64,000 nt of DNA from Candidatus Falkowbacteria bacterium HGW-Falkowbacteria-1 (GCA_002840305.1 PHAI01000002.1:266707-330706); one strand, 5' to 3'. Shown: positions 17,928-61,750, counted from the stretch's first letter. Program-made: numbers and translations. Notes: a model not told the origin generated them from the letters alone.

Positions 17928-18944
17928 TTATAATTCTCTAGTTTCTTCGCGATTCTTACTGTTTGCTAGCCTCAATATCATTAACTTCAATTTATAAGAA
18001 TTACCATGTTTAATTAACCCTAAATAAGAATTCAAAGAATCTTTTTTATTACTTTCTTTTAATTTATAAATCATTCTTCTTTTTGTTGATCTTCTTAAAA
18101 CTTTATACTCGGGAAAATTAATCCACCCCAAAAAATCAAGACCAGAAGAAACTGTTTTGACAAACGTTTTTTGAGGATGAATTTCTAATTTTAAATTTAA
18201 AAATAAAAATTCTTTAATCGGATTAATTTTATTCTCTAACCATTCCTTATTATCTGACATTATTACAAAATCATCGGCATAACGAATATAAAATTTGGCC
18301 TTAATTTTATGTTTTATAAATTGATCAAATATATTAAGATAAATATTGGCAAAAAGCTGAGAAGTGAGATTTCCCAATGGCAAACCCTTACCTTTTTTAA
18401 CTTGAAAGCTATAAATAATATTTTGCAAAAGACAAATAATATTTTCATCAGCAATATATTCATTTAAAATACCAAGCAATACTTGATGATCAATACTAGC
18501 AAAAAATTTTCTAATATCTCCTTTTAGCACCCAACAATTTTTGGTATTATTTTTACTAATTTTCAAAAAAAATTTATTAAATCTTGATACAGCTTTGTGC
18601 GTACCCTTATTTAAACGACAAGAATAACTATCAAATATAAAAATTTTATCGAAAAATGGATATAATTTACGATAAATAGCATGATGAAGTAATCGATCGC
18701 GAACATTAGCTTTATGAATATCTCTAATTTTTGGATCAAAAACTTTAAATGCCTTATAGCCACCGTGATTATATTTATGATATAATAGATCGTAATGTAA
18801 ATTTAAAAGATTGCCCATTAAGCTTATTCCAAACAATTGAACATCACGACGTCCACGCTTGCCATTTAGAAATTCGCCCCAAGCGCTTAACAAGTTATCT
18901 AAATCTATAATATCTTCAAATTTATGAGTCAATTTAATTTTCAT
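17928..18944 (-). CDS. DGR reverse transcriptase
   Basis: 338 aa. LPLGNLTSQLFANIYL is the DGR-typical [I/L]GxxxSQ motif. YIRYADDFVIM is the YxDD catalytic box. There is no maturase/endonuclease tail. It is adjacent to TR/VR. Confidence 0.9.
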   Translation of the reverse strand: MKIKLTHKFEDIIDLDNLLSAWGEFLNGKRGRRDVQLFGISLMGNLLNLHYDLLYHKYNHGGYKAFKVFDPKIRDIHKANVRDRLLHHAIYRKLYPFFDKIFIFDSYSCRLNKGTHKAVSRFNKFFLKISKNNTKNCWVLKGDIRKFFASIDHQVLLGILNEYIADENIICLLQNIIYSFQVKKGKGLPLGNLTSQLFANIYLNIFDQFIKHKIKAKFYIRYADDFVIMSDNKEWLENKINPIKEFLFLNLKLEIHPQKTFVKTVSSGLDFLGWINFPEYKVLRRSTKRRMIYKLKESNKKDSLNSYLGLIKHGNSYKLKLMILRLANSKNREETREL

Positions 18945-18957
18945 ACATCTAATTCTA

Positions 18958-18970
18958 CCCCCCCCCCCCC
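18958..18970. repeat. C13 (G13 on the minus strand) homopolymer
   Basis: I counted it directly: ccc at 18958-18960 plus ten c at 18961-18970. It lies between the RT start codon (18944) and the annotated avd start (19021). Confidence 0.95.
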
Positions 18971-19020
18971 TAAATTTACAACTAGCCCCACTCCTTCAAA
19001 AAAGCAAAGATACATATCTT

Positions 19021-19338
19021 TTGTGGTATTCTTATTTTAAAACATTACCCAAAGAACATCGTTTTAGTCTTGGTATTAAAATAGATAACCTTTTTGTAGA
19101 AATAATAGAATTTATTTCTGGAGCATTATATACAAACAAAGATGAAAAAATATTTTATATAAAAACTGCTATCAGAAAAAATGATGCTTTAAAATTACTA
19201 CTTTTAATTCTTTGGGAAACTAAATCAATAGATAATAAAAAATATTTAATGCTTTCCGAAAAAATCAATGAAATAGGTCGTATGCTCGGAGGTTGGGCTG
19301 GGCAAATTATAAAACAAAACTCCTCTATAAAAAAATAG
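19021..19338 (+). CDS. avd: Avd-like accessory variability determinant (four-helix bundle). The N-terminus is probably incomplete as annotated.
   Basis: LPKEHRFSLG..., a helical heptad character and a C-terminal EIGRMLGGWAGQ resemble Avd / 23S-IVS four-helix proteins. The only start is TTG. It lies on the opposite strand to RT, TR and VR. Confidence 0.7.
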   Translation: MWYSYFKTLPKEHRFSLGIKIDNLFVEIIEFISGALYTNKDEKIFYIKTAIRKNDALKLLLLILWETKSIDNKKYLMLSEKINEIGRMLGGWAGQIIKQNSSIKK

Positions 19339-19350
19339 AGGAGTTTTTTT
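19319..19350 (+). terminator. Intrinsic terminator after avd
   Basis: Stem actcctcta (19319-19327) pairs with tagaggagt (19336-19344). The loop is taaaaaaa and a T7 run follows. It abuts the TR boundary at 19351. Confidence 0.6.
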
Positions 19351-19484
19351 GAAACTTGCGAGAGCACAAAAGCAAACCCGTTATCACGATCCCACCTACT
19401 GCCAGAATTGTCATAGTTCGTATTCAGCCAGGAACCACTGCCATCGCGATTAGCGTTGAGCAATAAAGGATCGCCGTCAGAATT
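19351..19484 (-). repeat. DGR template repeat (TR)
   Basis: It is 134 nt and aligns without gaps to 19833-19966. It contains 28 adenines in the minus-strand sense. In frame it encodes NSDGDPLLLNANRDGSGSWLNTNYDNSGSRWDRDNGFAFVLSQV, which is AAY-rich. Confidence 0.9.
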
Positions 19485-19725
19485 ATGCAAAACACCGCCT
19501 ATTACACCGCCCTTTGAATACTCAAACAGGCTGAATATTATTCGGCATCATAATGCCATAGTGTTTTGCACCAAGTTTCGTTATATAGCATCAATATTTC
19601 ACTCTACCTACAGCCTTGGCCGAAGATATTCTCAAAATAATAACGCTCATCACAGTGGCCACCAACCTTGATCAATGACATATTCACTTTGACTGATTCT
19701 ATTTTAACATATTTACAAAATTTAT

Positions 19726-19764
19726 AAAAAAATAGCCTCGGCTTGCTTATGCAATCCGAGGCTA
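19726..19764 (-). terminator. Intrinsic terminator of the DGR target gene
   Basis: tagcctcgg (19733-19741) pairs with ccgaggcta (19756-19764), with an inner ttgc/gcaa pairing. On the minus strand a T7 run follows (A-run 19726-19732 on plus). Confidence 0.7.
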
Positions 19765-19765
19765 A

Positions 19766-19830
19766 AAATCAAAGGGCTAAAGGCCAAGACCTAAAGACTC
19801 AAAGAGTCAAAAAATCAAAAGACTAAGAAC
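19766..19830. repeat. Degenerate ~8-nt periodic repeat array
   Basis: The plus strand reads ggctaaag gccaagac ctaaagac tcaaagag tcaaaaaa tcaaaaga ctaagaac. It lies between the terminator hairpin and the target stop codon. Confidence 0.4.
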
Positions 19831-20443
19831 CCGAAACTTGCGAGAGCACAAAAGCAAACCCGCCACCACGAACCCACCTACTGCCAGAACCGCCACAGTC
19901 CGCATCCAGCCAGGAACCACTGCCATCGCGACCAGCGCTGAGCAATAAAGGATCGCCGTCAGAATCCTTAATAGGTTCGTGCATAACAACAATCCAATAT
20001 AAGCCCATAGCTTCAAGTTCTTTATCAGAGAATTTCTCCCTAAAAAGACAGGCCGCTTCGGCATTTGGTGTGGAAAGTTTGCGATTTTTAGCTTCTTTGC
20101 GGATGTTTTTAGTTATCCTATCGTTGTCGCTAAAAATCTCTCCCTTAAGGACAGCAATTTCATAAGTTACACCATTTGTTGGTTTAAAACTTTTTGAGCA
20201 TAAAATGCTCTTTGCATAATCACTGACGCGGAAGTCTTTACTTTCTAAACGTATAATCCACTGTTCGCCGGTTGCACCATCACTGGTAAGCGAAAAATAA
20301 ATTATACCATTTTCTTCACGCCATTTTTTTTCTGGCTCACTAACCAATGTTTCACCTCGTAAGAAACGAAGGGCACTTTCCATACCACCAAGTTTATTCA
20401 CAATGGCCTCAATTTGTCCTAAATTCAATTCTCCGTATTTCAT
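19823..20443 (-). CDS. DGR variable (target) protein, with a C-terminal CLec-like variable region and no signal peptide
   Basis: 206 aa. The C-terminus DSDGDPLLLSAGRDGSGSWLDADCGGSGSRWVRGGGFAFVLSQVSGS is encoded by the VR. The N-terminus MKYGELNLGQIEAIVNKLGG is hydrophilic. Confidence 0.85.
   Translation of the reverse strand: MKYGELNLGQIEAIVNKLGGMESALRFLRGETLVSEPEKKWREENGIIYFSLTSDGATGEQWIIRLESKDFRVSDYAKSILCSKSFKPTNGVTYEIAVLKGEIFSDNDRITKNIRKEAKNRKLSTPNAEAACLFREKFSDKELEAMGLYWIVVMHEPIKDSDGDPLLLSAGRDGSGSWLDADCGGSGSRWVRGGGFAFVLSQVSGS
19833..19966 (-). repeat. DGR variable repeat (VR)
   Basis: It has 15 mismatches to TR, and every one is at a TR adenine (14 A->G, 1 A->T). They affect 12 codons. 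The 3'-most 30 nt (19833-19862) are identical to TR. Confidence 0.9.
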
Positions 20444-50595: not shown

Positions 50596-51753
50596 TCAAT
50601 TAGTATCAGAGGTTATTACCCCTTGACGAATTGTGAATTTTCCTTTTTGACGACGAGATACTGGTAATTCCGCTATAAAAAAGCGGTTAGTATTCGTCGT
50701 GCCTGCTGGCCTGTACATAAAAGATACATTACCGGCTGGCAAGGAAAAAGCTGTGTATCGCTCAGATGCAATCAAGGCTCGTTCGTTCTTATCTGAAAAA
50801 ACGCGACTACCAACTTCGTCCATTGTAGCCCCCCAGAAAAATTCTAATCCGGGAGACACAAATGTCCTCAAGAAAATAGTCTTTTTTCTACCAGAACCAA
50901 AGACTGTGTTATCCTTTGATCCCAATATTCCAGACAAGTCTTGAGGGACAACAGTGAGTATTACTCCGCTGCTGTCAACCGAAGCTCTTAATTTTTTTCT
51001 GGTTCCATCTTGGTTCCAGACTTGAACCCAACCATAATTAGGAATTTTTATTTCAAAGTCGAAATCATAATTCCCTGGTTCAGGCGCCTCTACAACTTTT
51101 GCGTTAACACTTTTAAGAGTGCCCTCAATGTTAACAGCCTCGCCACCTTCCACTAAAAATTTTGCATCACCCAAAGAAATAAACATTGGATAATTGATTT
51201 TAGTTTTCAAGGTGACTCTAGGAAGAGGACGAAGACCTAAGGCTTTGTCGGTTAACTCAAACTTTAAACTATGCCCAACATCGCCAGCGTTTTTATCAAG
51301 TAACTGTTCGGCTCCTAATAATTGGCCGGAAACAATTTTTGAAATTTGTTGTCCGCCATCGTTATAGGTGACCATAAACGCCAAGTGCAAAGCTTCTGTT
51401 GGTTTACTGGCAACAGGTTTCTTGTCTTTTTTATAGGTAAAATATATAACCTGCGCTGGAAAAGAAATCTCTGCATCAGCAGATTTCATTTCGTAACCGC
51501 TTGCCGAAGCAACGGGCACTGCCCAAATTCTCTCCTTCAAAAGGCTTTTATAAACGCCACTGTTTAGCGGCATAATTGTCAAATCCTTTATTCTAGAGCT
51601 GTTAGTCACTGTGATAAAAGCACTTGCGCCTCCGGCCGGCTTGTCGGTTCTAAACCAAGGATTCTGCGTCCACTCCTGAGCTTTAAGCTCAGAAAAGCAC
51701 ATTGCCACCATTAATATGGTTGGCACCAATAAGTAACGAAACATCTTTTTCAT
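50596..51753 (-). CDS. Hypothetical secreted beta-rich protein (island gene 1)
   Basis: A signal-peptide-like N-terminus MKKMFRYLLVPTILMVAMCFSELKAQE. No family was recognised. Its GC is higher than the flanks. Confidence 0.55.
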   Translation of the reverse strand: MKKMFRYLLVPTILMVAMCFSELKAQEWTQNPWFRTDKPAGGASAFITVTNSSRIKDLTIMPLNSGVYKSLLKERIWAVPVASASGYEMKSADAEISFPAQVIYFTYKKDKKPVASKPTEALHLAFMVTYNDGGQQISKIVSGQLLGAEQLLDKNAGDVGHSLKFELTDKALGLRPLPRVTLKTKINYPMFISLGDAKFLVEGGEAVNIEGTLKSVNAKVVEAPEPGNYDFDFEIKIPNYGWVQVWNQDGTRKKLRASVDSSGVILTVVPQDLSGILGSKDNTVFGSGRKKTIFLRTFVSPGLEFFWGATMDEVGSRVFSDKNERALIASERYTAFSLPAGNVSFMYRPAGTTNTNRFFIAELPVSRRQKGKFTIRQGVITSDTN

Positions 51754-51858
51754 GATCTTCTTATTTTTAAGTTAAACATTCATTTTCCTTCAAAAATATA
51801 TTGTTTGCAATACTGCGCTTGCAATACCACAAAATGTCAAAGTTCTAACAAACATATA

Positions 51859-51887
51859 ACTATATCACATATAAAAAAATTTGTCAA
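51859..51887 (-). promoter_or_regulatory. Consensus sigma70 promoter of island gene 1
   Basis: On the minus strand: gTATTGACA, a 17-nt spacer, then TATAGT. Confidence 0.6.
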
Positions 51888-51949
51888 TACCCTGACAAAC
51901 GCCCAACAAAAAAGAAGAAGGTAACCGATTTTTAATTTACAAAAAATTA

Positions 51950-51988
51950 AAAAAAATAAAAAAGGCAGTGGATTTGTTCCTCTGCCTT
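51950..51988 (-). terminator. Terminator of island gene 2
   Basis: Stem aaggcag / ctgcctt (51962-51968 / 51982-51988), followed by a long T-run on the minus strand. Confidence 0.55.
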
Positions 51989-52010
51989 ATTGTGAAATTT
52001 TTTTTGCCCT

Positions 52011-52472
52011 TTAGAAAGGCGACTCTTCTTCGTCTCCGAATAGGCCACCACCTTCAACCGCACCAGTTGTGTCAGCTACTTGAACAGAAATCGATTTTAA
52101 ACTATCAATTTCATGTTTCAGCCTTTTCTGCTCAGCCTCTATTTTGGAGGCTCGAGAATTGGCATAACCTGCACTGCGAACTGCCTTGTCGGCTTTGATA
52201 GCAACGCTGTCGACTCTTTTGTTTAGGTTGATAATCTCCTGAAAAATTTCAGGAATTTTAACCGTATCAATAACTGTCACAGTACTGTCAACCACCACAA
52301 GAGCGTTATTGACGCGAACAACAGTGTTGTTAACACCCATGATTTGGTCAAACAGCATTTTGTTTCCTGTTTCAACTCGATTTCCCAAATTGGAAATTCC
52401 AACAAATAAAACAATGCCTACTATAAGGGACAGGGCTATAGCGCCAATGCCCAGCACACGGTCTGTGTTCAT
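52011..52472 (-). CDS. Hypothetical membrane-anchored coiled-coil protein (island gene 2)
   Basis: 153 aa with an N-terminal TM segment (LGIGAIALSLIVGIVLFVGI) and an acidic tail. GGAGG lies 7 nt upstream of the ATG. Confidence 0.55.
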   Translation of the reverse strand: MNTDRVLGIGAIALSLIVGIVLFVGISNLGNRVETGNKMLFDQIMGVNNTVVRVNNALVVVDSTVTVIDTVKIPEIFQEIINLNKRVDSVAIKADKAVRSAGYANSRASKIEAEQKRLKHEIDSLKSISVQVADTTGAVEGGGLFGDEEESPF

Positions 52473-52521
52473 GATTTATCCTCCATTTTTAAGTTACTAT
52501 TAATAAAACAACTAACCAAAT

Positions 52522-52550
52522 ATATTAGCATACAAAAAAAAATTTGTCAA
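52522..52550 (-). promoter_or_regulatory. Consensus sigma70 promoter of island gene 2
   Basis: On the minus strand: cTATTGACA, a 17-nt spacer, then TAATAT. The -35 box overlaps the stop codon of island gene 3. Confidence 0.55.
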
Positions 52551-52963
52551 TAGCCAGACCTAAGTCTCTTCATTTCCGTAAAAACGCTATCTTGCACTGA
52601 CAACAAGTGGCTATAAACAGCTTGCAATACCCCGTCGTACTCATTCAATCTTTTTATGACTTTAGCACTCTTCCTTTTTTCTTCTTCCAATGAGATGCTT
52701 ATTTTACTGTTCTGTTTTTCTAAGCTTTCTATTCTACTCAACATCTCTTCTTTGTTGAAGTCACTCTTGGGCCTAGAGACAAGAACGGGCTCTCCCTTTT
52801 TAACTTTATGCACAACAGGGACAAAAGGCTCTACTTTCTTAATACCATCAAGCTTGGCATAGAAAGCGCTCGATTCATCGTTCATCTTATTCATTTTAAG
52901 AACAAGAAAGACCACAAAAACAGTGGCCAGAACAAAAAAAATAGTTAAAAGACTCTTTTTCAT
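52547..52963 (-). CDS. Hypothetical membrane-anchored coiled-coil protein (island gene 3)
   Basis: 138 aa with an N-terminal TM segment (LLTIFFVLATVFVVFLVL). Confidence 0.5.
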   Translation of the reverse strand: MKKSLLTIFFVLATVFVVFLVLKMNKMNDESSAFYAKLDGIKKVEPFVPVVHKVKKGEPVLVSRPKSDFNKEEMLSRIESLEKQNSKISISLEEEKRKSAKVIKRLNEYDGVLQAVYSHLLSVQDSVFTEMKRLRSGY

Positions 52964-53035
52964 GATATATAGTGTTTTTAGTTTTTAATGTGCAAAATAA
53001 ATACAAAAAAAATTGTATTTTTAAAAAATCTTTTT

Positions 53036-53064
53036 ATTGTACAATAAAAAAAATATAATGTCAA
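53036..53064 (-). promoter_or_regulatory. Consensus-like promoter of island gene 3
   Basis: On the minus strand: cTATTGACA, a 17-nt spacer, then TACAAT. Confidence 0.55.
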
Positions 53065-53080
53065 TAGTGACTATTGACAT
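53058..53080. repeat. 23-bp perfect palindrome containing both -35 boxes of a divergent promoter pair
   Basis: atgtcaatagt-g-actattgacat, read directly from the sequence. Confidence 0.95.
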
Positions 53081-53102
53081 AAATAATATAATATGCTATA
53101 AT
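53074..53102 (+). promoter_or_regulatory. Perfect consensus sigma70 promoter of island gene 4
   Basis: TTGACA (53074-53079), a 17-nt spacer, then TATAAT (53097-53102). Confidence 0.65.
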
Positions 53103-53232
53103 CCAAAGTTAGTACAAAAGGTTACTATAAATTGATCATTGAAAAACAATTAAAATTTCCAGTGAGATTAAAACTCGCTTTTTATTTTACTAGAAATTTT
53201 AATTAAATTATGTACCTAAAAAAACAGAAATC

Positions 53233-53784
53233 ATGGGAGAAATCAAAAAAATTACGCCTCTCGACTACATTTATGAGGGAGAAGAAATGGTTGGTGTAAA
53301 AACCACCGAATATGGCGAACTACGAATAAGCTATTGGGAAGAAAAGGAGATTCGCTCTTTTGACAATGTTGAATTCAAAATCCCGTCCATGTTTGGAAAA
53401 TTTATGAAATTCGTGCCAGAAAGAGTTCGTCTCTGGAAAAATGGCGAATTTCAAAAAATGTTGCCCCACTGGATGTACGGAGTTTTTGTAAAAGGAGTTG
53501 AAAAGGATGTCTTGGTAACGAGATGCTACTACCACTCCGACCCCAGCAAAACATCAGAGAACCTTCCATTTGGACAAACAGTTGTTGGTTCGCTAGAAAT
53601 GAAATTTTCCACAAACACTAAGACTGGTGAAAAAAAATTAATTTTAAATTTTGTCTACGGTGGTTCCCGAGAAAAAGCTCAAAAAAGAGTTATAATCGAC
53701 GGTAAGCCGGACGAAACAAAACCAAATTTTCAAATAACAGTCCCCGGCTCTGGTGGAAAAAAAATAACGGTTGTTAATATTTAA
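53233..53784 (+). CDS. Hypothetical soluble protein (island gene 4)
   Basis: 183-aa ORF with no TM segment or signal peptide. No family was recognised. Confidence 0.5.
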   Translation: MGEIKKITPLDYIYEGEEMVGVKTTEYGELRISYWEEKEIRSFDNVEFKIPSMFGKFMKFVPERVRLWKNGEFQKMLPHWMYGVFVKGVEKDVLVTRCYYHSDPSKTSENLPFGQTVVGSLEMKFSTNTKTGEKKLILNFVYGGSREKAQKRVIIDGKPDETKPNFQITVPGSGGKKITVVNI

Positions 53785-56904: not shown

Positions 56905-57099
56905 AAAGACTATTCAATTAGTGCTAACAAAATTGTATATTATTTGAAACGTTTTGTCTACACTGGCCATCTTTATTTTTCCCGCTTATACACCCTCTTA
57001 AAAGCAAGGGCCAACAACATGGTTTTTATGTTGTATATTTTTAAAAATATGTTATAATTTATATATAATGAAAATATTTAAAAATTAAAATTTAAAACT

Positions 57100-58110
57100 A
57101 TGGTCTCTTATAGAACGATTTTAAAACAAGCCTGGAGAATTTCCTGGAAAAATAAATTTCTATGGTTTTTCGGGTTTTTTGCTTCCCTTATTAGCTTTGG
57201 TGCTGAGTTTAAAATTATCTCCAGATCAATAAGTCAAGAAACTGGCTTCAAAATGTTAAACAATATCGGCATGTTTATAAAGACTGGTATTTTTTCCAAA
57301 AATGCTCTAAACAATGCTCTCGAATTAATAAAAACAGACCTAGGCTCATTTTTAGCCTTAATCTTATTTTTACTTTTAATCTTGGCCGTTTTCTTGTTCT
57401 TTGTTTGGTTGGCTACTGTTTCCCAAATATCTATTATTGACGCTGTTAAAAAGATAACAAAAAACGTCAAGGAAAAAATAACAATAAAAAATCAACTAAA
57501 CAAAGCCAACGCAAAATTTTGGCCAGTTCTATGGATGAATCTAATCATGAGTGTAATGATAAATGGAATAACTCTTTTGATCAGTATTTTGTTGATATTT
57601 ATACTGCTTCAAAATAAACCAATCTTCCTCTTTCTATACGGAATCATCTTTATTGCCTTTATTCCAATAATCTTATTCCTATCTTTTATAATTAAATATT
57701 CTATCGCCTACGTAGTAATTGACGGCAAGAGCTTTTCATCAGCCCTAAAAAAGGGTTGGAAATTATTTAGAGACAACTGGTTGATAAGCATAGAAATGGC
57801 GATAACATTGTTTTTTATAAACATCGTGGCCATGTTAGCAGTTTCAACCTTAGCATTTTTAGGTCTAATATTTATAATAGGGATAGCCATGACTTCTACT
57901 ATTTTTATTATTTCTTCGCAAATTATTTTCTGGTTCTTGATAACTATTGCAATTCTACTTGCTGTAGCAATAATGATTGTAGGTGGGTCAATAATTAACA
58001 CCTTCCAAATAAGCACCTGGACGGATTTATTTATAAAGTTAAAAGAAAATAAAGTTAGTGGTAAATTAGAAAGAATTTTCTCCGAAGGAAATACCCCAAA
58101 TAAACTATAA
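57100..58110 (+). CDS. Hypothetical polytopic membrane protein
   Basis: 336 aa with about 6-7 TM segments. Its stop lies 3 nt before the start of the ATPase gene. Confidence 0.55.
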   Translation: MVSYRTILKQAWRISWKNKFLWFFGFFASLISFGAEFKIISRSISQETGFKMLNNIGMFIKTGIFSKNALNNALELIKTDLGSFLALILFLLLILAVFLFFVWLATVSQISIIDAVKKITKNVKEKITIKNQLNKANAKFWPVLWMNLIMSVMINGITLLISILLIFILLQNKPIFLFLYGIIFIAFIPIILFLSFIIKYSIAYVVIDGKSFSSALKKGWKLFRDNWLISIEMAITLFFINIVAMLAVSTLAFLGLIFIIGIAMTSTIFIISSQIIFWFLITIAILLAVAIMIVGGSIINTFQISTWTDLFIKLKENKVSGKLERIFSEGNTPNKL

Positions 58111-58113
58111 AAT

Positions 58114-61100
58114 ATGAGTGGATTCAATTCAATTTCCAGTTTGTTAAACAAGGATGAGGAGGCAAATGAAGACAGTGCGCAAGGCAAATTTGCGGTCAAA
58201 CAAAAGGAAATAGAACTAAAAGAAGTGGAAAGACAAACTCAGACCAAGGCTTCGACCTTGGGTCTTTCTTATGTTGATTTGTTTGCCTTTCCGGTGAGCC
58301 CAGAAGCTATTGCTCTAATACCAGAAGAAGAGGCCGAAAAAGAAAAACTTGTTTGTTTTTATTACGATGGTGAAAATATAAGAGTAGGAACGACCAGGCC
58401 AGAAAATCCAAAAATAAAAGAAATGGAAGAATATTTAAACAAAACCTACTTTACAACAAGCAAGGCATATTTGATATCCGAAAATAGTTTTAAATGCGCC
58501 ATGGATGTTTACAAGACAATACCAAAGGTAAGCAAAGTAACTGGTGGCGTGGAGATAAAAGAAGAAGACCTAGAAAGATTTAAATCGGATATCAAGGATT
58601 ATAAAAGTTTAAACGAAAAAATAAACACTGTTAATATATCCGAAGTTGTAACACTCGTATTGGCAACAGCTTTAAAAGTTGGTTCCAGTGATATCCATAT
58701 TGAATCTGAAGAGAATGGAATAGTTGTAAGACTCAGGATTGACGGCGTCTTACAAGAAGCTGCTACGATCGACAAAATCAAATGGAAAAGAATAATATCC
58801 CGCATGAAAATACTGGCTGGAGTAAAAATAAACATAGAAGACAAGCCACAAGATGGTAGATATTCTATTTTTTTAAAAAATGAAAGAGTTGATGTTAGGT
58901 CTTCCTTCTTGCCGACCTCTTATGGCGAAAGCGTGGTTATGAGACTTTTAAAATCAAGCTCAGTTGGATTATCATTTGAGGATTTAGGTATTATGCCCCA
59001 GGCCTACGAAATATTAAAAAAGGAAATTGAAAAACCAAATGGCTTAATTCTTACAACTGGTCCGACTGGAAGCGGAAAAACAACCACTCTTTATGCTATT
59101 TTAAACAAGTTAAACCAACCAGGAACAAAAATTATAACCTTGGAAGATCCAATAGAATACCAACTAGAGGGTGTAAACCAAAGTCAAATAAACGCCAAAA
59201 AGGGCTATACTTTTGCCAACGGTCTAAGATCAATACTTAGACAAGATCCGGACATAGTTATGATTGGCGAAACTAGAGACCTGGAAACAGCTGAAATTTC
59301 AGTTCAAGCCAGTTTAACTGGACACTTAGTTTTATCAACACTACACACCAACGATTCTGCCGGAGTAATACCTCGCTTAATTGACATGGGAATAAAACCG
59401 TATTTTCTTGTCCCCTCTATAAACGCCGTGATAGGACAAAGATTGATTAGAAAAGTTTGCCCTAAATGTAGGGAGGTACATCAATTAAATGAAGATGAAG
59501 AATTATTAGTAAAAAAAATATTAGGAGTAATATCTCCTAAATCAGGGCTAAGCATCCCAACGACACTACCATCTTTATACAAAGCTGGGGCTGGTTGCGA
59601 ACATTGTAACGGTCTAGGATATAAAGGAAGAATCGGTATCTACGAAGTATTTACCATGGACGATAAATTAAAGCAATTAACCATAGACAATGCTCCATCT
59701 TTTAAAATACTACAACAAGCTATAGAAAATGGAATGATAACCATGCTTCAAGACGGAATACTTAAGTCATTAAAAGGATTAACCACCTTAGAAGAAGTTT
59801 ATAGGGTCATCGGAGACTTTGATTATGTCAACGAATTGTATGACGTAGCTATTTCAAAAACAATGGGAAGAGGAATCAAAATTAAAGCAGAAGATTTAGA
59901 AAAAGCAAAAAATTTAATAAAACAACCAGAGTCTATACAAGGACTAATGAGAGAGGTGCCAACCAAAGAAATAATAGGAATCTTGATGTCCTTGGCTATA
60001 AAAAGTGATGCCGGAGATCTTCACGTTGAACCAACGGAAAAAAATGTAAAGATTCGTTTTAGAATAGACGGAGTTTTGCACGATATATTTGAATTACCAA
60101 AGGATAATTATCTCCCACTTTTGGGTGAAATTAAAATATTAATTGGAGTAGAGACTAATGTCAAAAAATCAACCATAGATGGGCGCTTTACTATTTTTAT
60201 GCCAGATTCAAAACTTGATTGTCGTGTTTCTATTATATCTGGGGGTTTTGGAGAAACAGTGGTAATAAGATTACTAACTGGAGCCGGAGAAGCTTTGGAT
60301 GTAGAAAAATTGGGCTTATCAAAATATGCTTTGCCAGTTCTTAAGAGGTCAATGGTCAAAACCAGGGGAATACTTTTAACTACTGGTCCGACAGGAAGTG
60401 GTAAAACAACAACATTGTATAGCGTATTAAAAACAATAAACACCCCCGACGTTAAAATAATAACCGTTGAAGATCCGATAGAGTACCAAATGGAAGGAAT
60501 TATTCAAACTCAAATTGACAGTGAGGGTGGATACACCTTTGCAGCCGCCATGAGATCGCTGCTTAGACAAAACCCAAACATCATGATGATTGGAGAAATA
60601 AGGGACAAGGAAACGGCTGAGATAGCAATTGAGGCTGCTCTTACTGGACACTTAGTTCTGTCAACTATCCATACCAACAGTGCGGCTGGCGCTGTTTCTC
60701 GTTTTTCCGGCTTAGGTGTTGAAAGACAAATGCTAGCCAACGCTCTAGAATGCTCCATCGGACAAAGATTGGTTAGAAAAATATGCCCATTCTGCGAAAA
60801 AGAAGAGTTAGTCTTGGACGATATAAAACTAGCTGAAATAAAAAACATATTAGACAGTATAAAAAACCCAGATGTCATAATTCCAAGTCAAATGAAATTC
60901 TACAGAGGCAAAGGCTGCGACAAATGTAATAATATAGGTTATAAAGGCAGACTTGGATTATACGAAGCACTAGAAGTAAGCGACGATGTAAGAAAAATAA
61001 TAAACACTGAATCAGCTAGCGATAAAGAAATCGAAGAGGCGGCCATCAAAAATGGCATGGTAAGCGTTATCCAAGATGGAGTGTTAAAAGCTTTGGAAGG

Positions 61101-61140
61101 ATTAACAACAATCGACGAAGTGTTTAGAGTTGCTAAGTAA
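58114..61140 (+). CDS. Tandem-fused double PilB/GspE-type secretion/pilus ATPase
   Basis: Module 1 (aa 1-567) has an N-terminal GspE_N-like domain. It also has Walker A GPTGSGKTTT (nt 59059-59082), DPDIVMIGETRD, TGHLVLSTLHTN and CPKC..CEHC. Module 2 (aa 568-1008) repeats all of these: GPTGSGKTTT (nt 60385-60408), NPNIMMIGEIRD, TGHLVLSTIHTN and CPFC..CDKC. Confidence 0.85.
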   Translation: MSGFNSISSLLNKDEEANEDSAQGKFAVKQKEIELKEVERQTQTKASTLGLSYVDLFAFPVSPEAIALIPEEEAEKEKLVCFYYDGENIRVGTTRPENPKIKEMEEYLNKTYFTTSKAYLISENSFKCAMDVYKTIPKVSKVTGGVEIKEEDLERFKSDIKDYKSLNEKINTVNISEVVTLVLATALKVGSSDIHIESEENGIVVRLRIDGVLQEAATIDKIKWKRIISRMKILAGVKINIEDKPQDGRYSIFLKNERVDVRSSFLPTSYGESVVMRLLKSSSVGLSFEDLGIMPQAYEILKKEIEKPNGLILTTGPTGSGKTTTLYAILNKLNQPGTKIITLEDPIEYQLEGVNQSQINAKKGYTFANGLRSILRQDPDIVMIGETRDLETAEISVQASLTGHLVLSTLHTNDSAGVIPRLIDMGIKPYFLVPSINAVIGQRLIRKVCPKCREVHQLNEDEELLVKKILGVISPKSGLSIPTTLPSLYKAGAGCEHCNGLGYKGRIGIYEVFTMDDKLKQLTIDNAPSFKILQQAIENGMITMLQDGILKSLKGLTTLEEVYRVIGDFDYVNELYDVAISKTMGRGIKIKAEDLEKAKNLIKQPESIQGLMREVPTKEIIGILMSLAIKSDAGDLHVEPTEKNVKIRFRIDGVLHDIFELPKDNYLPLLGEIKILIGVETNVKKSTIDGRFTIFMPDSKLDCRVSIISGGFGETVVIRLLTGAGEALDVEKLGLSKYALPVLKRSMVKTRGILLTTGPTGSGKTTTLYSVLKTINTPDVKIITVEDPIEYQMEGIIQTQIDSEGGYTFAAAMRSLLRQNPNIMMIGEIRDKETAEIAIEAALTGHLVLSTIHTNSAAGAVSRFSGLGVERQMLANALECSIGQRLVRKICPFCEKEELVLDDIKLAEIKNILDSIKNPDVIIPSQMKFYRGKGCDKCNNIGYKGRLGLYEALEVSDDVRKIINTESASDKEIEEAAIKNGMVSVIQDGVLKALEGLTTIDEVFRVAK

Positions 61141-61168: not shown

Positions 61169-61750
61169 ATGATAGATAAAAAATTTATTAGCGCCTTAAG
61201 GAAAAACTATTTAGAAAAAAACAGTCAAAGAAGACAAATAATCAGCTCTTCTAATATTGTTCTAAATAATTCCAAAAAGGCGATATTCGCTCTTCACCGA
61301 CAAGACTTTGACTTAGCTGAAAATAACATGAAAGAGTCTGAAAATATAATCAAAAAAATTGAAAAAAGTTTTGGAGCAGACAGAGTGAAGGAAGAGGGCG
61401 CATATTTAGCATCCTTGGAAGAATATACTGAAGCAAAACTATTCTTACAATTTTTAAAAACAGGCAAAATATCAAAAATAAAAGAACTAAATATACCCTC
61501 AGAAGCTTATATCGGCGGTCTTTGTGACTTAAGCGGAGAGCTCATAAGAAAAGCTACCAACGAGGCTATAAACAAAAACTTCCAAGAAATAAAAAAAATA
61601 AAAGAAATTATTAATGACATTCTAAATGAATTAATAGATTTTGACGTTATCGGTTATATGAGAACAAAATATGACCAAGCAAGAGGAAACCTAAAAAAAA
61701 TAGAACAAATGGACTACGAAATAAGCTTGAGAGAAAATTTTAAGAAATAA
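61169..61750 (+). CDS. Translin-family-like protein (tentative)
   Basis: The helical 193-aa protein has YIGGLCDLSGELIRKA and MRTKYDQARGNLKKIE, which resemble the prokaryotic translin-like family. The call is from memory only. Confidence 0.4.
   Translation: MIDKKFISALRKNYLEKNSQRRQIISSSNIVLNNSKKAIFALHRQDFDLAENNMKESENIIKKIEKSFGADRVKEEGAYLASLEEYTEAKLFLQFLKTGKISKIKELNIPSEAYIGGLCDLSGELIRKATNEAINKNFQEIKKIKEIINDILNELIDFDVIGYMRTKYDQARGNLKKIEQMDYEISLRENFKK

What the first reader, a model, noticed from the sequence alone, without database searches (positions are those of the whole stretch)
58114..61140. Two complete PilB/GspE secretion-ATPase modules are fused in a single 1008-aa polypeptide
Module 1 (aa 1-567, nt 58114-59814) looks like a full-length PilB. 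It has a GspE_N-like N-terminus, an N2 domain, Walker A, an Asp box, Walker B, a His box and a tetracysteine motif.

Module 2 (aa 568-1008, nt 59815-61137) repeats the N2 domain and the ATPase domain with every catalytic motif intact. These are GPTGSGKTTT, NPNIMMIGEIRD, TGHLVLSTIHTN and CPFC..CDKC.

The halves are clearly diverged, about half identical by eye. This is therefore an old fusion, not an assembly duplication.

These ATPases work as hexamers. A covalent dimer would assemble as a trimer of dimers with two non-equivalent subunit classes, hard-wiring the 2-fold asymmetry seen in PilB hexamer structures.

I am not aware of a described tandem-fused PilB/GspE. No pilC, pilT, pilM or pilin genes are adjacent.
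Basis: partly seen in the sequence, partly recalled or inferred. Interest (0 to 1): 0.65.

Follow-up and report, generated by a model that had tools for sequence, protein, structure and literature searches.

The report
Naturally fused double PilB-type motor ATPase
A candidate-phyla-radiation bacterium (Falkowbacteria) encodes a pilus-motor-type ATPase in which two complete, apparently active motor units are fused into one 1008-residue protein; the fusion is real, conserved in at least 80 species and has arisen more than once, and I found no paper describing it, so it could serve to test how these ring motors fire.

Summary
Window 58114-61140 (+) is one uninterrupted 1008-aa ORF with two complete PilB/GspE-type modules (N2 domain plus ATPase domain), 44% identical to each other. 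Only module 1 has an N-terminal GspE_N/MshEN-like domain.

It is not an assembly artefact. Three independent assemblies give the identical gene, and 80 species-level genomes (Falkowbacteria and other Patescibacteria) carry a 1003-1018-aa ortholog. All catalytic motifs are invariant or nearly so in both modules, and both cores are under strong purifying selection (dN/dS 0.02-0.10).

More distant tandems (38-48% identity) occur in Parcubacteria/Paceibacterota. Three other lineages duplicated independently, each with module 1 sister to its own module 2.

The gene is never next to pil genes. In Falkowbacteria it always follows a 336-aa polytopic membrane protein, which also precedes the closest single-module relatives.

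Most likely it forms a three-chain pseudo-hexameric ring. The oligomeric state and the cellular role (pilus assembly or DNA uptake) are inferred, not shown.

It is a new variant of a known kind. I found no description of it in the searchable literature. Interest is moderate.

The parts
57040..57069 (+). Promoter-like site (TTTAAA-18-TATAAT) in the 195-nt divergent intergenic region upstream of the membrane-protein gene. It is a candidate operon promoter only.
   Evidence: Consensus scan and sequence. Not evidence of function.
57100..58110 (+). 336-aa polytopic, all-helical membrane protein (weak DUF7544-like). It is the conserved upstream partner, and its stop codon lies 3 nt before the ATPase ATG.
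   Evidence: A homolog sits immediately upstream in 83/83 loci at 30-67% identity. Homologs (27-33% identical to TM336) also sit directly upstream of single-module relatives in 17/17 metagenome loci that include upstream DNA. Pfam gives only DUF7544 at E 9e-4, below the cutoff. The family has 294 hits; those that carry an organism name are nearly all Patescibacteria. The AF2 model has pLDDT 84 and pTM 0.80 and finds no PDB fold match. The 3-nt gap is read.
58114..61140 (+). Tandem PilB/GspE-type ATPase, 1008 aa plus stop codon, in a single ORF.
58258..58512 (+). N1 domain (GspE_N / MshEN-type fold, aa 49-133). It is present only in module 1 and lacks the c-di-GMP-binding motif.
   Evidence: Pfam MshEN matches aa 49-103 at 24.3 bits against a cutoff of 23.1. 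AF2 shows an alpha/beta domain with pLDDT 83-90. Neither the strict nor the relaxed MshEN 24-residue motif is found (motif taken from PMC5013675).
58636..58968 (+). Module 1 N2 domain (aa 175-285), with invariant arginines R249, R262 and R277.
   Evidence: By sequence offset these arginines correspond to PilB-Gm R257, R271 and R286, described in PMC5424180.
58996..59811 (+). Module 1 C-terminal ATPase domain (aa 295-566). It carries Walker A (316-323), Asp box (341-349), Walker B GE (385-386), His box (402-413) and the tetracysteine motif (449, 452, 495, 498).
   Evidence: Motifs are invariant or nearly invariant in 81 distinct orthologs and in 117 database homologs.
59812..59961 (+). Inter-module junction and linker (aa 567-616). 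The first half is strongly conserved (GnFDYvneLYDiviSqTiGRGiKi) and the second half is variable. It is homologous to the N1-N2 linker of module 1.
   Evidence: There is one indel column across 81 orthologs, and no conserved internal Met (M584 is I in the consensus).
59962..60294 (+). Module 2 N2 domain (aa 617-727), with invariant arginines R691, R704 and R719.
60331..61137 (+). Module 2 C-terminal ATPase domain (aa 740-1008). It carries Walker A (758-765), Asp box (783-791), the 'RQNPN' signature plus Walker B GE (818-828), His box (844-855) and the tetracysteine motif (891, 894, 935, 938).
61169..61750 (+). Translin-family protein (193 aa) starting 28 nt downstream, with no terminator-like site between. 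It may be co-transcribed. Whether it belongs to the system is uncertain.
   Evidence: Pfam Translin E 1e-21. It lies downstream in 79/83 loci. General synteny in this lineage could explain the conservation.

Best explanation
The gene encodes a natural covalent tandem of two catalytically competent extension-type (PilB/GspE-like) secretion-ATPase modules.

It belongs to a Patescibacteria lineage of 'orphan' PilB-like ATPases. These lie outside pil operons, in housekeeping neighbourhoods. In different organisms the lineage exists as N1-less singles (about 415-440 aa), N1-bearing singles (about 550-590 aa) or tandems (about 1000 aa).

Shown here:
- The fusion is real.
- It is conserved across at least 80 species.
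- Both modules keep all ATP-binding, hydrolysis, arginine-finger, pore-loop and zinc-motif residues.
- Both modules are under strong purifying selection.
- Module 2 lacks the N1 domain and evolves somewhat faster.

Inferred:
- Three chains assemble into one pseudo-hexameric ring (m1-m2)3. It would have six working sites but only three N1 domains, two alternating classes of subunit interface, and at most 3-fold symmetry.
- The ring docks on the membrane and converts ATP turnover into movements of a membrane platform. This would assemble a type IV filament (a pilus, or a competence pseudopilus for DNA uptake).
- In Falkowbacteria the translationally coupled upstream polytopic membrane protein is the likely membrane anchor or partner.
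- A three-chain ring would match a trimeric, internally duplicated platform protein of the PilC/GspF type (PulF is reported as a trimer, PMC10790770).
For: Reality of the fusion:
- Single ORF with two modules.
- Identical gene in three independent assemblies.
- Orthologs of 1003-1018 aa in 83/83 loci from 80 species genomes.
- More than 120 clusters at 90% identity, and 13-14 clusters at 50% identity reaching 38% identity, found in Parcubacteria/Paceibacterota.

Both modules look functional:
- Walker A Lys, Asp-box Glu, Walker B Glu, His-box histidines, three N2D arginines, pore-loop D/E and all eight cysteines are invariant in both modules. Their roles are taken from PMC5424180.
- dN/dS is 0.02-0.10 for both cores.
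- Each module superposes on PilB/PilF cores with TM 0.93. The closest PDB sequences are PilB, GspE and PilF.

Recurrence and origin:
- Independent tandem duplications occurred in P0126, P0129 and P0137, with module 1 sister to its own module 2 in 190-200 of 200 bootstraps. This argues that the fused state is repeatedly advantageous.
- The m2-specific 'RQNPN' signature is shared by Falkowbacteria and several Paceibacterota tandems.

Membrane partner:
- Present immediately upstream in 83/83 tandem loci.
- Present upstream of single-module relatives in 17/17 loci that include upstream DNA.
- Its stop codon is 3 nt from the ATPase start.

Link to type IV filaments:
- P0169, the only full-length single-module protein with the m2 signature, sits next to a modular type IV pilin gene.
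- Falkowbacteria are reported to encode modular type IV pilins (PMC8179133).
- Type IV pilus components are reported as widespread in CPR bacteria (PMC6744442).
Against: - Oligomeric state is not tested. The AF2 monomer has pTM 0.47, so the relative placement of the two modules is unknown.
- No pilC, pilM, pilT, pilD or pilin gene lies near the tandem gene in the window or in any of the related loci scanned (gene tables for the distant tandems).
- I could not establish whether the same genomes also carry a canonical pilB/pilT/pilC set. The third protein search did not answer this.
- Taken singly, neither module reaches the NCBIfam equivalog cutoffs: m1 scores 482 and m2 394 against 676 for PilB, and m1 495 and m2 432 against 630 for GspE. 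The whole-protein 'pass' only reflects adding two modules.
- The membrane partner has no PilC/GspF similarity and no PDB fold match.
- The partner is absent from the Paceibacterota tandem loci, where a DHH-family protein is upstream instead. Its conservation within Falkowbacteria could therefore partly reflect general synteny.
- Monophyly of module 2 has only 66% NJ bootstrap support and could be inflated by long-branch attraction.
Confidence: 0.55

Rival explanations
1. The tandem ATPase and the upstream DUF7544-like polytopic membrane protein form a separate two-component membrane machine. It would not be a type IV pilus motor. It might drive DNA or nucleotide uptake, or secretion, without pilins or a PilC platform.
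For: - The gene is never adjacent to pil genes.
- The membrane-protein/ATPase pair is strictly conserved, even where the membrane protein is only about 30% identical, and it is also present in single-module relatives.
- The two genes are translationally coupled.
- Relatives sit among DNA-metabolism genes: DHH phosphoesterase, PolA, PolX, RuvB and RuvC.
- One N1-less relative is followed by a ComEA-like HHH_3 protein.
- A Translin-family gene lies downstream here.
- Per-module scores are below the PilB and GspE equivalog cutoffs.
Against: - The pore-loop acidic residues and all other features of extension ATPases that act on PilC-type platforms are retained.
- P0169, a relative carrying the m2 signature, is next to a pilin gene.
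- CPR genomes are small and highly syntenic, so adjacency to housekeeping or DNA-repair genes is weak evidence.
- The membrane partner is missing from the Paceibacterota tandem loci.
Confidence: 0.25
2. Six chains assemble into two stacked homohexameric rings, one made of module 1 and one of module 2, as in type II AAA+ proteins such as p97, NSF and ClpB. The alternative is one mixed ring.
For: - The roughly 50-residue linker (aa 567-616) is long enough for many geometries.
- Only module 1 has the N1 domain, so a distinct membrane-proximal ring is conceivable.
- The AF2 monomer gives no constraint, with pTM 0.47.
Against: - In PilB-type hexamers the N2D of one chain packs on the CTD of its neighbour as a rigid 'packing unit', and the ring faces the platform with one side (PMC5424180).
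- No stacked PilT-like rings appear among the PDB matches.
- Module 2 keeps the pore-loop and platform-facing residues. That would be pointless in a distal ring.
- This argument is an inference and has not been tested.
Confidence: 0.12
3. One module is a regulatory or structural pseudo-subunit. The protein would then work as a ring with only three active sites.
For: - Module 2 evolves faster: mean pairwise identity is 45% against 52% for module 1.
- Module 2 carries a lineage-specific D-to-N change just before Walker B.
- In an unrelated tandem from a non-CPR organism (P0137), module 1 has lost the Walker A lysine. Degeneration of one module is therefore possible in this architecture.
Against: - In the window protein and 81 orthologs, every catalytic and sensor residue is invariant in both modules.
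- dN/dS is equally low in both cores.
Confidence: 0.07
4. It is an assembly or annotation artefact: two adjacent pilB genes wrongly joined, or a collapsed duplication.
For: None was found. The possibility is raised only because the source is a metagenome-assembled genome.
Against: - Identical gene in three assemblies made by different pipelines.
- 83/83 orthologous loci have one uninterrupted ORF.
- The halves are only 44% identical.
- The junction residues are conserved.
- Purifying selection acts across the junction.
Confidence: 0.01

Closest known systems
PilB, the type IVa pilus extension ATPase (Geobacter metallireducens 5TSG/5TSH/6OLJ; Myxococcus 3JC8; Thermus PilF core 5IT5/5OIU)
   Same: - Each module has the same N2D plus CTD fold (TM 0.93, 43-44% identity).
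- Each module has Walker A, Asp box, atypical Walker B, His box, N2D arginines, pore-loop acidic residues and a tetracysteine zinc motif.
- Module 1 has an N1 domain.
   Different: - There are two modules in one chain, whereas all solved chains are single-module.
- The second module has no N1 domain.
- The gene is not in a pil operon.
- Per-module scores are below the PilB equivalog cutoff.
- A homohexamer can be C2-symmetric. An (m1-m2)3 ring cannot.
GspE/EpsE, the type II secretion ATPase (Vibrio 1P9R, 4KSR, 4PHT)
   Same: It gives the best NCBIfam model score (TIGR02533), and shares the domain order and zinc motif.
   Different: - No gspF/L/M or secretin context is present.
- Patescibacteria are reported to lack an outer-membrane secretin (PMC6744442).
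- Each module scores below the GspE cutoff.
PilT4 C3 'OCOCOC' hexamers (6OJY, 6OK2) and other C3 states of PilT-like ATPases
   Same: These rings have alternating open and closed interfaces, in effect a trimer of dimers. That is the symmetry a covalent dimer would impose (listed; discussed in PMC6858323 and PMC5424180).
   Different: - There the alternation is conformational, within a homohexamer of a retraction ATPase. Here it would be genetically fixed in an extension-type ATPase.
- No PilT signature (AIRNLIRE) is present.
Thermus thermophilus PilF (6F8L, 913 aa)
   Same: It is a long PilB-family protein produced by internal domain duplication.
   Different: PilF multiplies only its N-terminal GSPII-type domains and has one ATPase core (own knowledge; the match to 6F8L covers chain residues 378-884 only). 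The present protein duplicates the whole N2D plus ATPase core.
PilC/GspF platform proteins (internal duplication; PulF reported as a trimer, PMC10790770)
   Same: They follow the same evolutionary logic: a tandem-duplicated protomer whose trimer presents six pseudo-equivalent units. A three-chain ATPase ring would match such a platform one-to-one.
   Different: It is a different protein family. No PilC homolog was found near the gene, and the stoichiometric match is conjecture.
Natural and engineered tandem ring ATPases (p97/NSF/ClpB two-ring AAA+; covalently linked ClpX) - from own knowledge
   Same: They have several ATPase modules in one polypeptide. Linked subunits allow site-specific inactivation to dissect how the ring fires.
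   Different: They belong to a different ATPase clade. In type II AAA+ proteins the modules stack in separate rings rather than alternating within one ring.

Membership tests
PilT/VirB11-like secretion ATPases (Pfam T2SSE, PF00437) | Walker A, Asp box, atypical Walker B (hhhhGE) and His box in an N2D plus CTD core | tested here: met
   Pfam T2SSE matches in two stretches at E 3e-229. All four motifs are present in both modules and are invariant or nearly so in 81 orthologs and 117 homologs. Fold match has TM 0.93.
Extension-type PilB/GspE subfamily | N-terminal GspE_N/MshEN-type N1 domain | tested here: met
   Module 1 only: Pfam MshEN matches aa 49-103 at 24.3 bits against a cutoff of 23.1, and AF2 shows a folded alpha/beta domain at aa 50-133. 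Module 2 has no N1 domain.
Extension-type PilB/GspE subfamily | Tetracysteine zinc-binding motif in the CTD | tested here: met
   C449, C452, C495 and C498, and C891, C894, C935 and C938, are invariant in 117 homologs. Metal binding itself was not tested.
PilB (TIGR02538 equivalog) / GspE (TIGR02533 equivalog) | Score above NCBI's curated equivalog cutoff | tested here: not met
   The whole protein passes (865 and 917 bits) only because two modules add up. Taken singly, m1 scores 482 (PilB) and 495 (GspE) and m2 scores 394 (PilB) and 432 (GspE), against cutoffs of 676 (PilB) and 630 (GspE). Single-module CPR relatives also fall below the cutoffs.
PilB / GspE as part of a type IV pilus or type II secretion gene set | Genomic association with platform (PilC/GspF), PilM/GspL, pilins or prepilin peptidase | tested here: not met
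   No such gene is present in the 64-kb window. No prepilin motif was found in any of the 91 loci held at that point (L001-L091), and no pil gene appears in the gene tables of the loci for which called genes were available. Presence elsewhere in the genome could not be tested (one search was uninformative).
PilB / GspE | Hexameric ring that acts on the platform protein | not testable with these tools
   Only a monomer model was possible, with pTM 0.47. No multimer prediction or coordinates were available.
PilT/PilU retraction ATPases (TIGR01420) | Score above the subfamily cutoff, no N1 domain, about 350 aa, AIRNLIRE-type C-terminal motif | tested here: not met
   The modules score 175 and 156 bits against a cutoff of 319. 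No AIRNLIRE-like motif is present. The modules are 43-44% identical to PilB cores and 26-27% identical to PilT.
ComGA competence ATPase (NF041000) | Score above the equivalog cutoff | tested here: not met
   The modules score 248 and 230 bits against a cutoff of 300. A role in DNA uptake is not excluded by this result.
MshE-type c-di-GMP-binding ATPases | Tandem 24-residue motif RLGxx(L/V/I)(L/V/I)xxG(L/V/I)(L/V/I)xxxxLxxxLxxQ in the N-terminal domain (PMC5013675) | tested here: not met
   Neither the strict motif nor the paper's relaxed motif occurs anywhere in the protein.

The most novel reading that the evidence does not exclude
The tandem motor and its conserved DUF7544-like polytopic membrane partner form a previously unrecognised, PilC-independent membrane machine. 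It would be specific to Patescibacteria, for example for uptake of DNA or nucleotides from the host. Its genetically fixed (AB)3 ring would run an obligate 3-fold alternating catalytic cycle, unlike the C2 rotary cycle proposed for canonical PilB.
Probability: 0.15. Interest if true: 0.8.

Novelty: new variant of a known kind. Interest (0 to 1): 0.5.

Why it matters
PilB/PilT-type motors power type IV pili, type II secretion, competence pili and archaella.

How the six sites fire (C2 rotary, or C3/C6 states) is still debated, as is how a hexamer couples to a dimeric or trimeric platform (PMC5424180, PMC6858323, PMC10790770).

A natural, conserved covalent dimer fixes two non-equivalent subunit classes in the ring and forbids strict C2 symmetry. 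It also allows module-specific Walker mutations without artificial linkers. It is therefore a ready-made test object for the firing-order question.

That the fusion evolved at least three or four times suggests that halving the number of chains, or differentiating alternate subunits, is advantageous.

It also marks a Patescibacteria-specific 'orphan' PilB lineage with an uncharacterised membrane partner. This is relevant to how these ultra-small episymbionts attach to hosts or take up DNA.

Tried and rejected
- Assembly artefact or missed frameshift: rejected.
- Conserved internal start that would make module 2 a separate product: rejected. M584 is not conserved and is I in the consensus.
- Inter-module geometry from AlphaFold2: not obtainable. 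The monomer has pTM 0.47, and no coordinates or multimer mode were available.
- Identity of the membrane partner:
  - Pfam gives only a sub-threshold DUF7544 match.
  - Foldseek against the PDB gives nothing significant; the best hit is E 0.11 to choline-transporter-like proteins, TM about 0.3.
  - It is therefore not filed under any known family and is not PilC-like.
- Whether the same genome has a canonical pilB/pilT/pilC:
  - A tblastn of both modules and a prepilin regex on the window found nothing.
  - A prepilin regex on all loci gave only UvrA false positives.
  - The third and last large protein search, using the N-terminal half of P0169, returned mostly about 430-aa N1-less Patescibacteria ATPases. 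None was on a contig that carries a tandem gene. The question remains unresolved.
- Single ancient origin for all tandems: rejected for P0126, P0129 and P0137.
  - For the main family it is only moderately supported, by 133/200 NJ bootstraps plus the RQNPN signature.
  - Long-branch attraction is not excluded, because only neighbour-joining was available.
- c-di-GMP regulation through MshEN: rejected because the motif is absent.
- PilT-type retraction role: rejected.
- Literature searches for any described tandem or fused PilB/GspE found none.


Full report
**1. Observation**

Window 58114-61140 (+) is one uninterrupted ORF of 1008 codons.

Pfam T2SSE matches it in two stretches (E 3e-229). 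A marginal MshEN/T2SSE_N match covers aa 49-103. NCBIfam GspE and PilB models also match twice.

BLASTP of aa 1-567 against aa 568-1008 aligns aa 139-565 with aa 580-1006 at 44% identity and 69% similarity, E 2e-130.

An AlphaFold2 model built on 117 homologs has mean pLDDT 82.4. It shows six folded units:
- N1D, aa 50-133.
- N2D, aa 175-285.
- CTD, aa 295-566.
- A partly helical linker, aa 567-616.
- A second N2D, aa 617-727.
- A second CTD, aa 740-1007.

Its pTM is only 0.47, so the relative position of the modules is undetermined. Foldseek places each module on PilB/PilF cores with TM 0.93 and 43-44% identity. PilT and DotB are far behind. By sequence, the nearest solved chains are PilB, GspE/EpsE and PilF. 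All of them are single-module.

**2. Not an artefact, and not rare**

The identical protein is on record as a hypothetical protein of Candidatus Falkowbacteria bacterium HGW-Falkowbacteria-1. It is encoded on three independently assembled contigs.

- The large protein database holds more than 120 clusters (at 90% identity) of 1003-1012-aa full-length homologs at 65-90% identity.
- A scan of one genome per species found 163 relatives. The best 80 loci are all Patescibacteria/Falkowbacteria MAGs, although many record titles are mislabelled 'uncultured Gammaproteobacteria'. Every one carries a single ORF of 1003-1018 aa.
- The junction is itself conserved: aa 555-590 read G.TSLeEvYRViGnFDYvneLYDiviSqTiGRGiKi, with one indel column in 81 orthologs (invariant Y563, G567, Y571, L575, Y576, S581 and G587).
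- There is no conserved internal start codon.

An exhaustive search of representatives clustered at 50% identity found 13-14 tandem clusters down to 38% identity. Members carry Parcubacteria and Paceibacterota names, for example KKU82539.1 annotated 'General secretory pathway protein E'.

**3. Both modules look active**

The following are invariant or nearly so in both modules, in 81 distinct orthologs and 117 database homologs:
- The Walker A lysine.
- The Asp-box glutamate that coordinates Mg.
- The Walker B glutamate.
- Both His-box histidines and the preceding threonine.
- The three N2D arginines.
- The pore-loop D/E pair.
- All eight zinc-motif cysteines.

Their roles are those described for Geobacter PilB (PMC5424180).

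The distant tandems also keep these residues. The exception is P0137, an unrelated non-CPR protein whose module 1 has lost the Walker A lysine.

dN/dS is 0.02-0.10 for both cores, and about 0.03 in the least saturated pairs. Module 2 is somewhat more divergent, with mean pairwise identity 45% against 52% for module 1.

**4. Evolutionary history**

I built a neighbour-joining tree of 180 N2D+CTD cores.

- Module 2 of the main family forms a clade that excludes every module 1 in 133 of 200 bootstraps. The only 'single' proteins consistently inside that clade are fragments of tandems.
- Module 1 sequences sit among single-module Patescibacteria PilB-like proteins.
- A derived D-to-N change ('RQNPN' instead of 'RQDPD' just before Walker B) marks 19/25 module 2 sequences, 0/25 module 1 sequences and 3/121 singles. 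Two of those three singles are tandem fragments.

This supports one old fusion shared by Falkowbacteria and part of the Paceibacterota. The bootstrap support is moderate, and long-branch attraction cannot be excluded with the method available.

In three other proteins (P0126, P0129, P0137) module 1 is sister to its own module 2 in 190-200 of 200 bootstraps. In P0129 the halves are 71% identical. The tandem state has therefore arisen at least three or four times.

**5. Genomic context**

Nothing in the 64-kb window resembles another PilB/PilT or a prepilin. No prepilin motif occurs in any of the 91 loci held at that point.

In Falkowbacteria the ATPase gene always follows a 336-aa polytopic membrane-protein gene. 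This holds in 83/83 loci, at 30-67% identity. The membrane-protein stop codon lies 3 nt before the ATPase ATG. A promoter-like site lies upstream of the pair, and no terminator-like site lies between them or before the downstream Translin-family gene.

The closest single-module relative of Falkowbacteria module 1 is P0136 (584 aa, Parcubacteria). It is preceded by a homolog of that membrane protein (31% identity, E 5e-31). In a JGI metagenome scan, all 17 loci with P0136-like single ATPases and upstream DNA show the same pair. The pairing is therefore older than, or independent of, the fusion.

About the membrane protein:
- Hits that carry an organism name are nearly all Patescibacteria (294 hits in all).
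- It matches only DUF7544, below threshold.
- It is predicted with confidence as an all-helical bundle (pLDDT 84, pTM 0.80).
- It has no significant PDB fold match. It is not PilC-like.

Other members of the lineage lie in a different but recurrent context, TsaE <- -> DHH-family protein -> ATPase, with PolA, PolX, RuvB or RuvC nearby. These members are the single P0141 and the tandems P0276, P0122, P0129 and P0126.

A 413-aa N1-less relative is TsaE-adjacent and is followed by a ComEA-like HHH_3 protein.

P0169 is the only full-length single with the module 2 signature. It sits next to a modular type IV pilin gene (N_methyl + Laminin_G_3).

**6. Mechanism**

Shown: this is a conserved fused pair of complete, selectively maintained and apparently catalytic PilB-type modules with one N1 domain.

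Inferred: three chains form one pseudo-hexameric ring.

This follows from the way PilB-type rings are built. The N2D of one subunit packs on the CTD of the next as a rigid unit, 'six beads on a string' (PMC5424180). It also follows from module 2 retaining its pore-loop and inter-unit sensor residues.

In an alternating ring the subunit opposite m1 is m2, so strict C2 symmetry is impossible and C3 is the maximum. The alternating open/closed C3 pattern is known for PilT4 (6ojy and 6ok2; PMC6858323). PilB has been captured in the C2 CCOCCO state (6olj).

The tandem ring therefore has two options. It may run a 3-fold alternating cycle. Or it may run a pseudo-C2 rotary cycle in which intra-chain and inter-chain interfaces must each open and close. 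The latter is compatible with both modules being fully equipped.

Three chains with three N1 domains would fit a trimeric, internally duplicated platform such as PulF (PMC10790770). This is conjecture.

The cellular role is most likely type IV filament assembly, for a pilus or for DNA uptake. The reasons are family membership, the pilin-adjacent relative, reported Falkowbacteria pilins (PMC8179133) and the ubiquity of type IV pili in CPR bacteria (PMC6744442).

However, the orphan position, the dedicated membrane partner and the sub-cutoff per-module scores leave room for a distinct machine.

**7. Comparison and membership**

The protein is a member of the PilT/VirB11-like (T2SSE) superfamily, and of its extension-type PilB/GspE branch. 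It has an N1 domain and a zinc motif, and it is much closer to PilB than to PilT.

It should not be filed as an equivalog of PilB, GspE, TfpB or ComGA. Each module alone scores below every curated cutoff, and the defining gene context is absent.

It is not MshE-like, because it has no c-di-GMP motif. It is not PilT-like.

**8. Novelty and score**

The sequences are in public databases under generic names. I found no paper that mentions a tandem or fused PilB/GspE, and no tandem chain is in the PDB.

I rate it a new variant of a known kind, of moderate interest (0.5). It is not a new fold or a new chemistry. It is a natural linked-dimer motor that makes the symmetry and firing-order question directly testable. 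It also flags an uncharacterised membrane partner in episymbiotic bacteria.

The main gaps are the oligomeric state and whether the host genomes also carry a canonical pil gene set.

Noticed in passing
window 17928-20443 (- strand): This looks like a textbook diversity-generating retroelement. A reverse transcriptase lies at 17928-18944 (Pfam RVT_1, E 2e-25). A 133-nt template repeat lies at 19351-19483, and its variable copy lies at 19833-19965 inside the 3' end of the ORF 19823-20443. The two copies differ at 14 positions, and every difference falls on an adenine of the template copy (13 A-to-G, 1 A-to-T).
   Followed up: yes
window 61169-61750 (+): A Translin-family protein (Pfam E 1e-21) lies 28 nt downstream of the ATPase and is conserved there in 79/83 loci. 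To my knowledge Translin is mainly a eukaryotic and archaeal nucleic-acid-binding family, so a conserved bacterial copy is unusual.
   Followed up: partly
L089 8001-11144 (protein P0137, GCA_964384625.1): A 1047-aa protein from a non-CPR genome (neighbours include an ECF sigma factor, a sulfatase and BatA) carries precomputed Pfam hits to T2SSF (the PilC/GspF platform family), then a T2SSE module with a dead Walker A (GSGTT), then an intact T2SSE module. Platform, pseudo-ATPase and ATPase would thus be in one chain.
   Followed up: partly
L085 3226-6213 (protein P0129): This tandem ATPase has halves that are 71% identical and are sisters in 200/200 bootstraps. It is either a recent, independent duplication or gene conversion between the modules.
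   Followed up: partly
L084, L086, L087, L091, L114, L121 (relatives outside Falkowbacteria): There is a recurrent context TsaE <- -> DHH-family phosphoesterase (about 380 aa) -> PilB-like ATPase (single or tandem), with PolA, PolX, RuvB or RuvC nearby. In L121 an N1-less 413-aa ATPase is followed by a ComEA-like HHH_3 + LTD protein. This may hint at a link to DNA uptake or processing.
   Followed up: partly
L120 763-3348 (protein P0169 and its neighbour): P0169 is the only full-length single-module ATPase with the module-2 'RQNPN' signature. It lies directly upstream of a modular type IV pilin (N_methyl + Laminin_G_3). It may represent the donor lineage of module 2.
   Followed up: partly
loci L005, L008-L010 and many others: Dozens of these genomes are evidently Patescibacteria (same synteny, 62-82% identical tandem ATPase). 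Their records are nevertheless titled 'uncultured Gammaproteobacteria bacterium', one is titled 'Planctomycetota' and one 'Saccharimonadales'. These are probably taxonomic mislabels in the public records.
   Followed up: no
proteins P0466-P0557: Patescibacteria also have a large class of about 415-460-aa GspE/PulE-family proteins that lack the N1 domain. How they relate to canonical operon-encoded PilB was not worked out.
   Followed up: no
window 50596-53784: Four ORFs upstream of the aminoacyl-tRNA synthetase genes have no Pfam family (385, 153, 138 and 183 aa; two have an N-terminal hydrophobic stretch and only weak coiled-coil-type Pfam hits). They are poorly conserved even among close relatives, being detected in 4-10 of 83 loci.
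   Followed up: no
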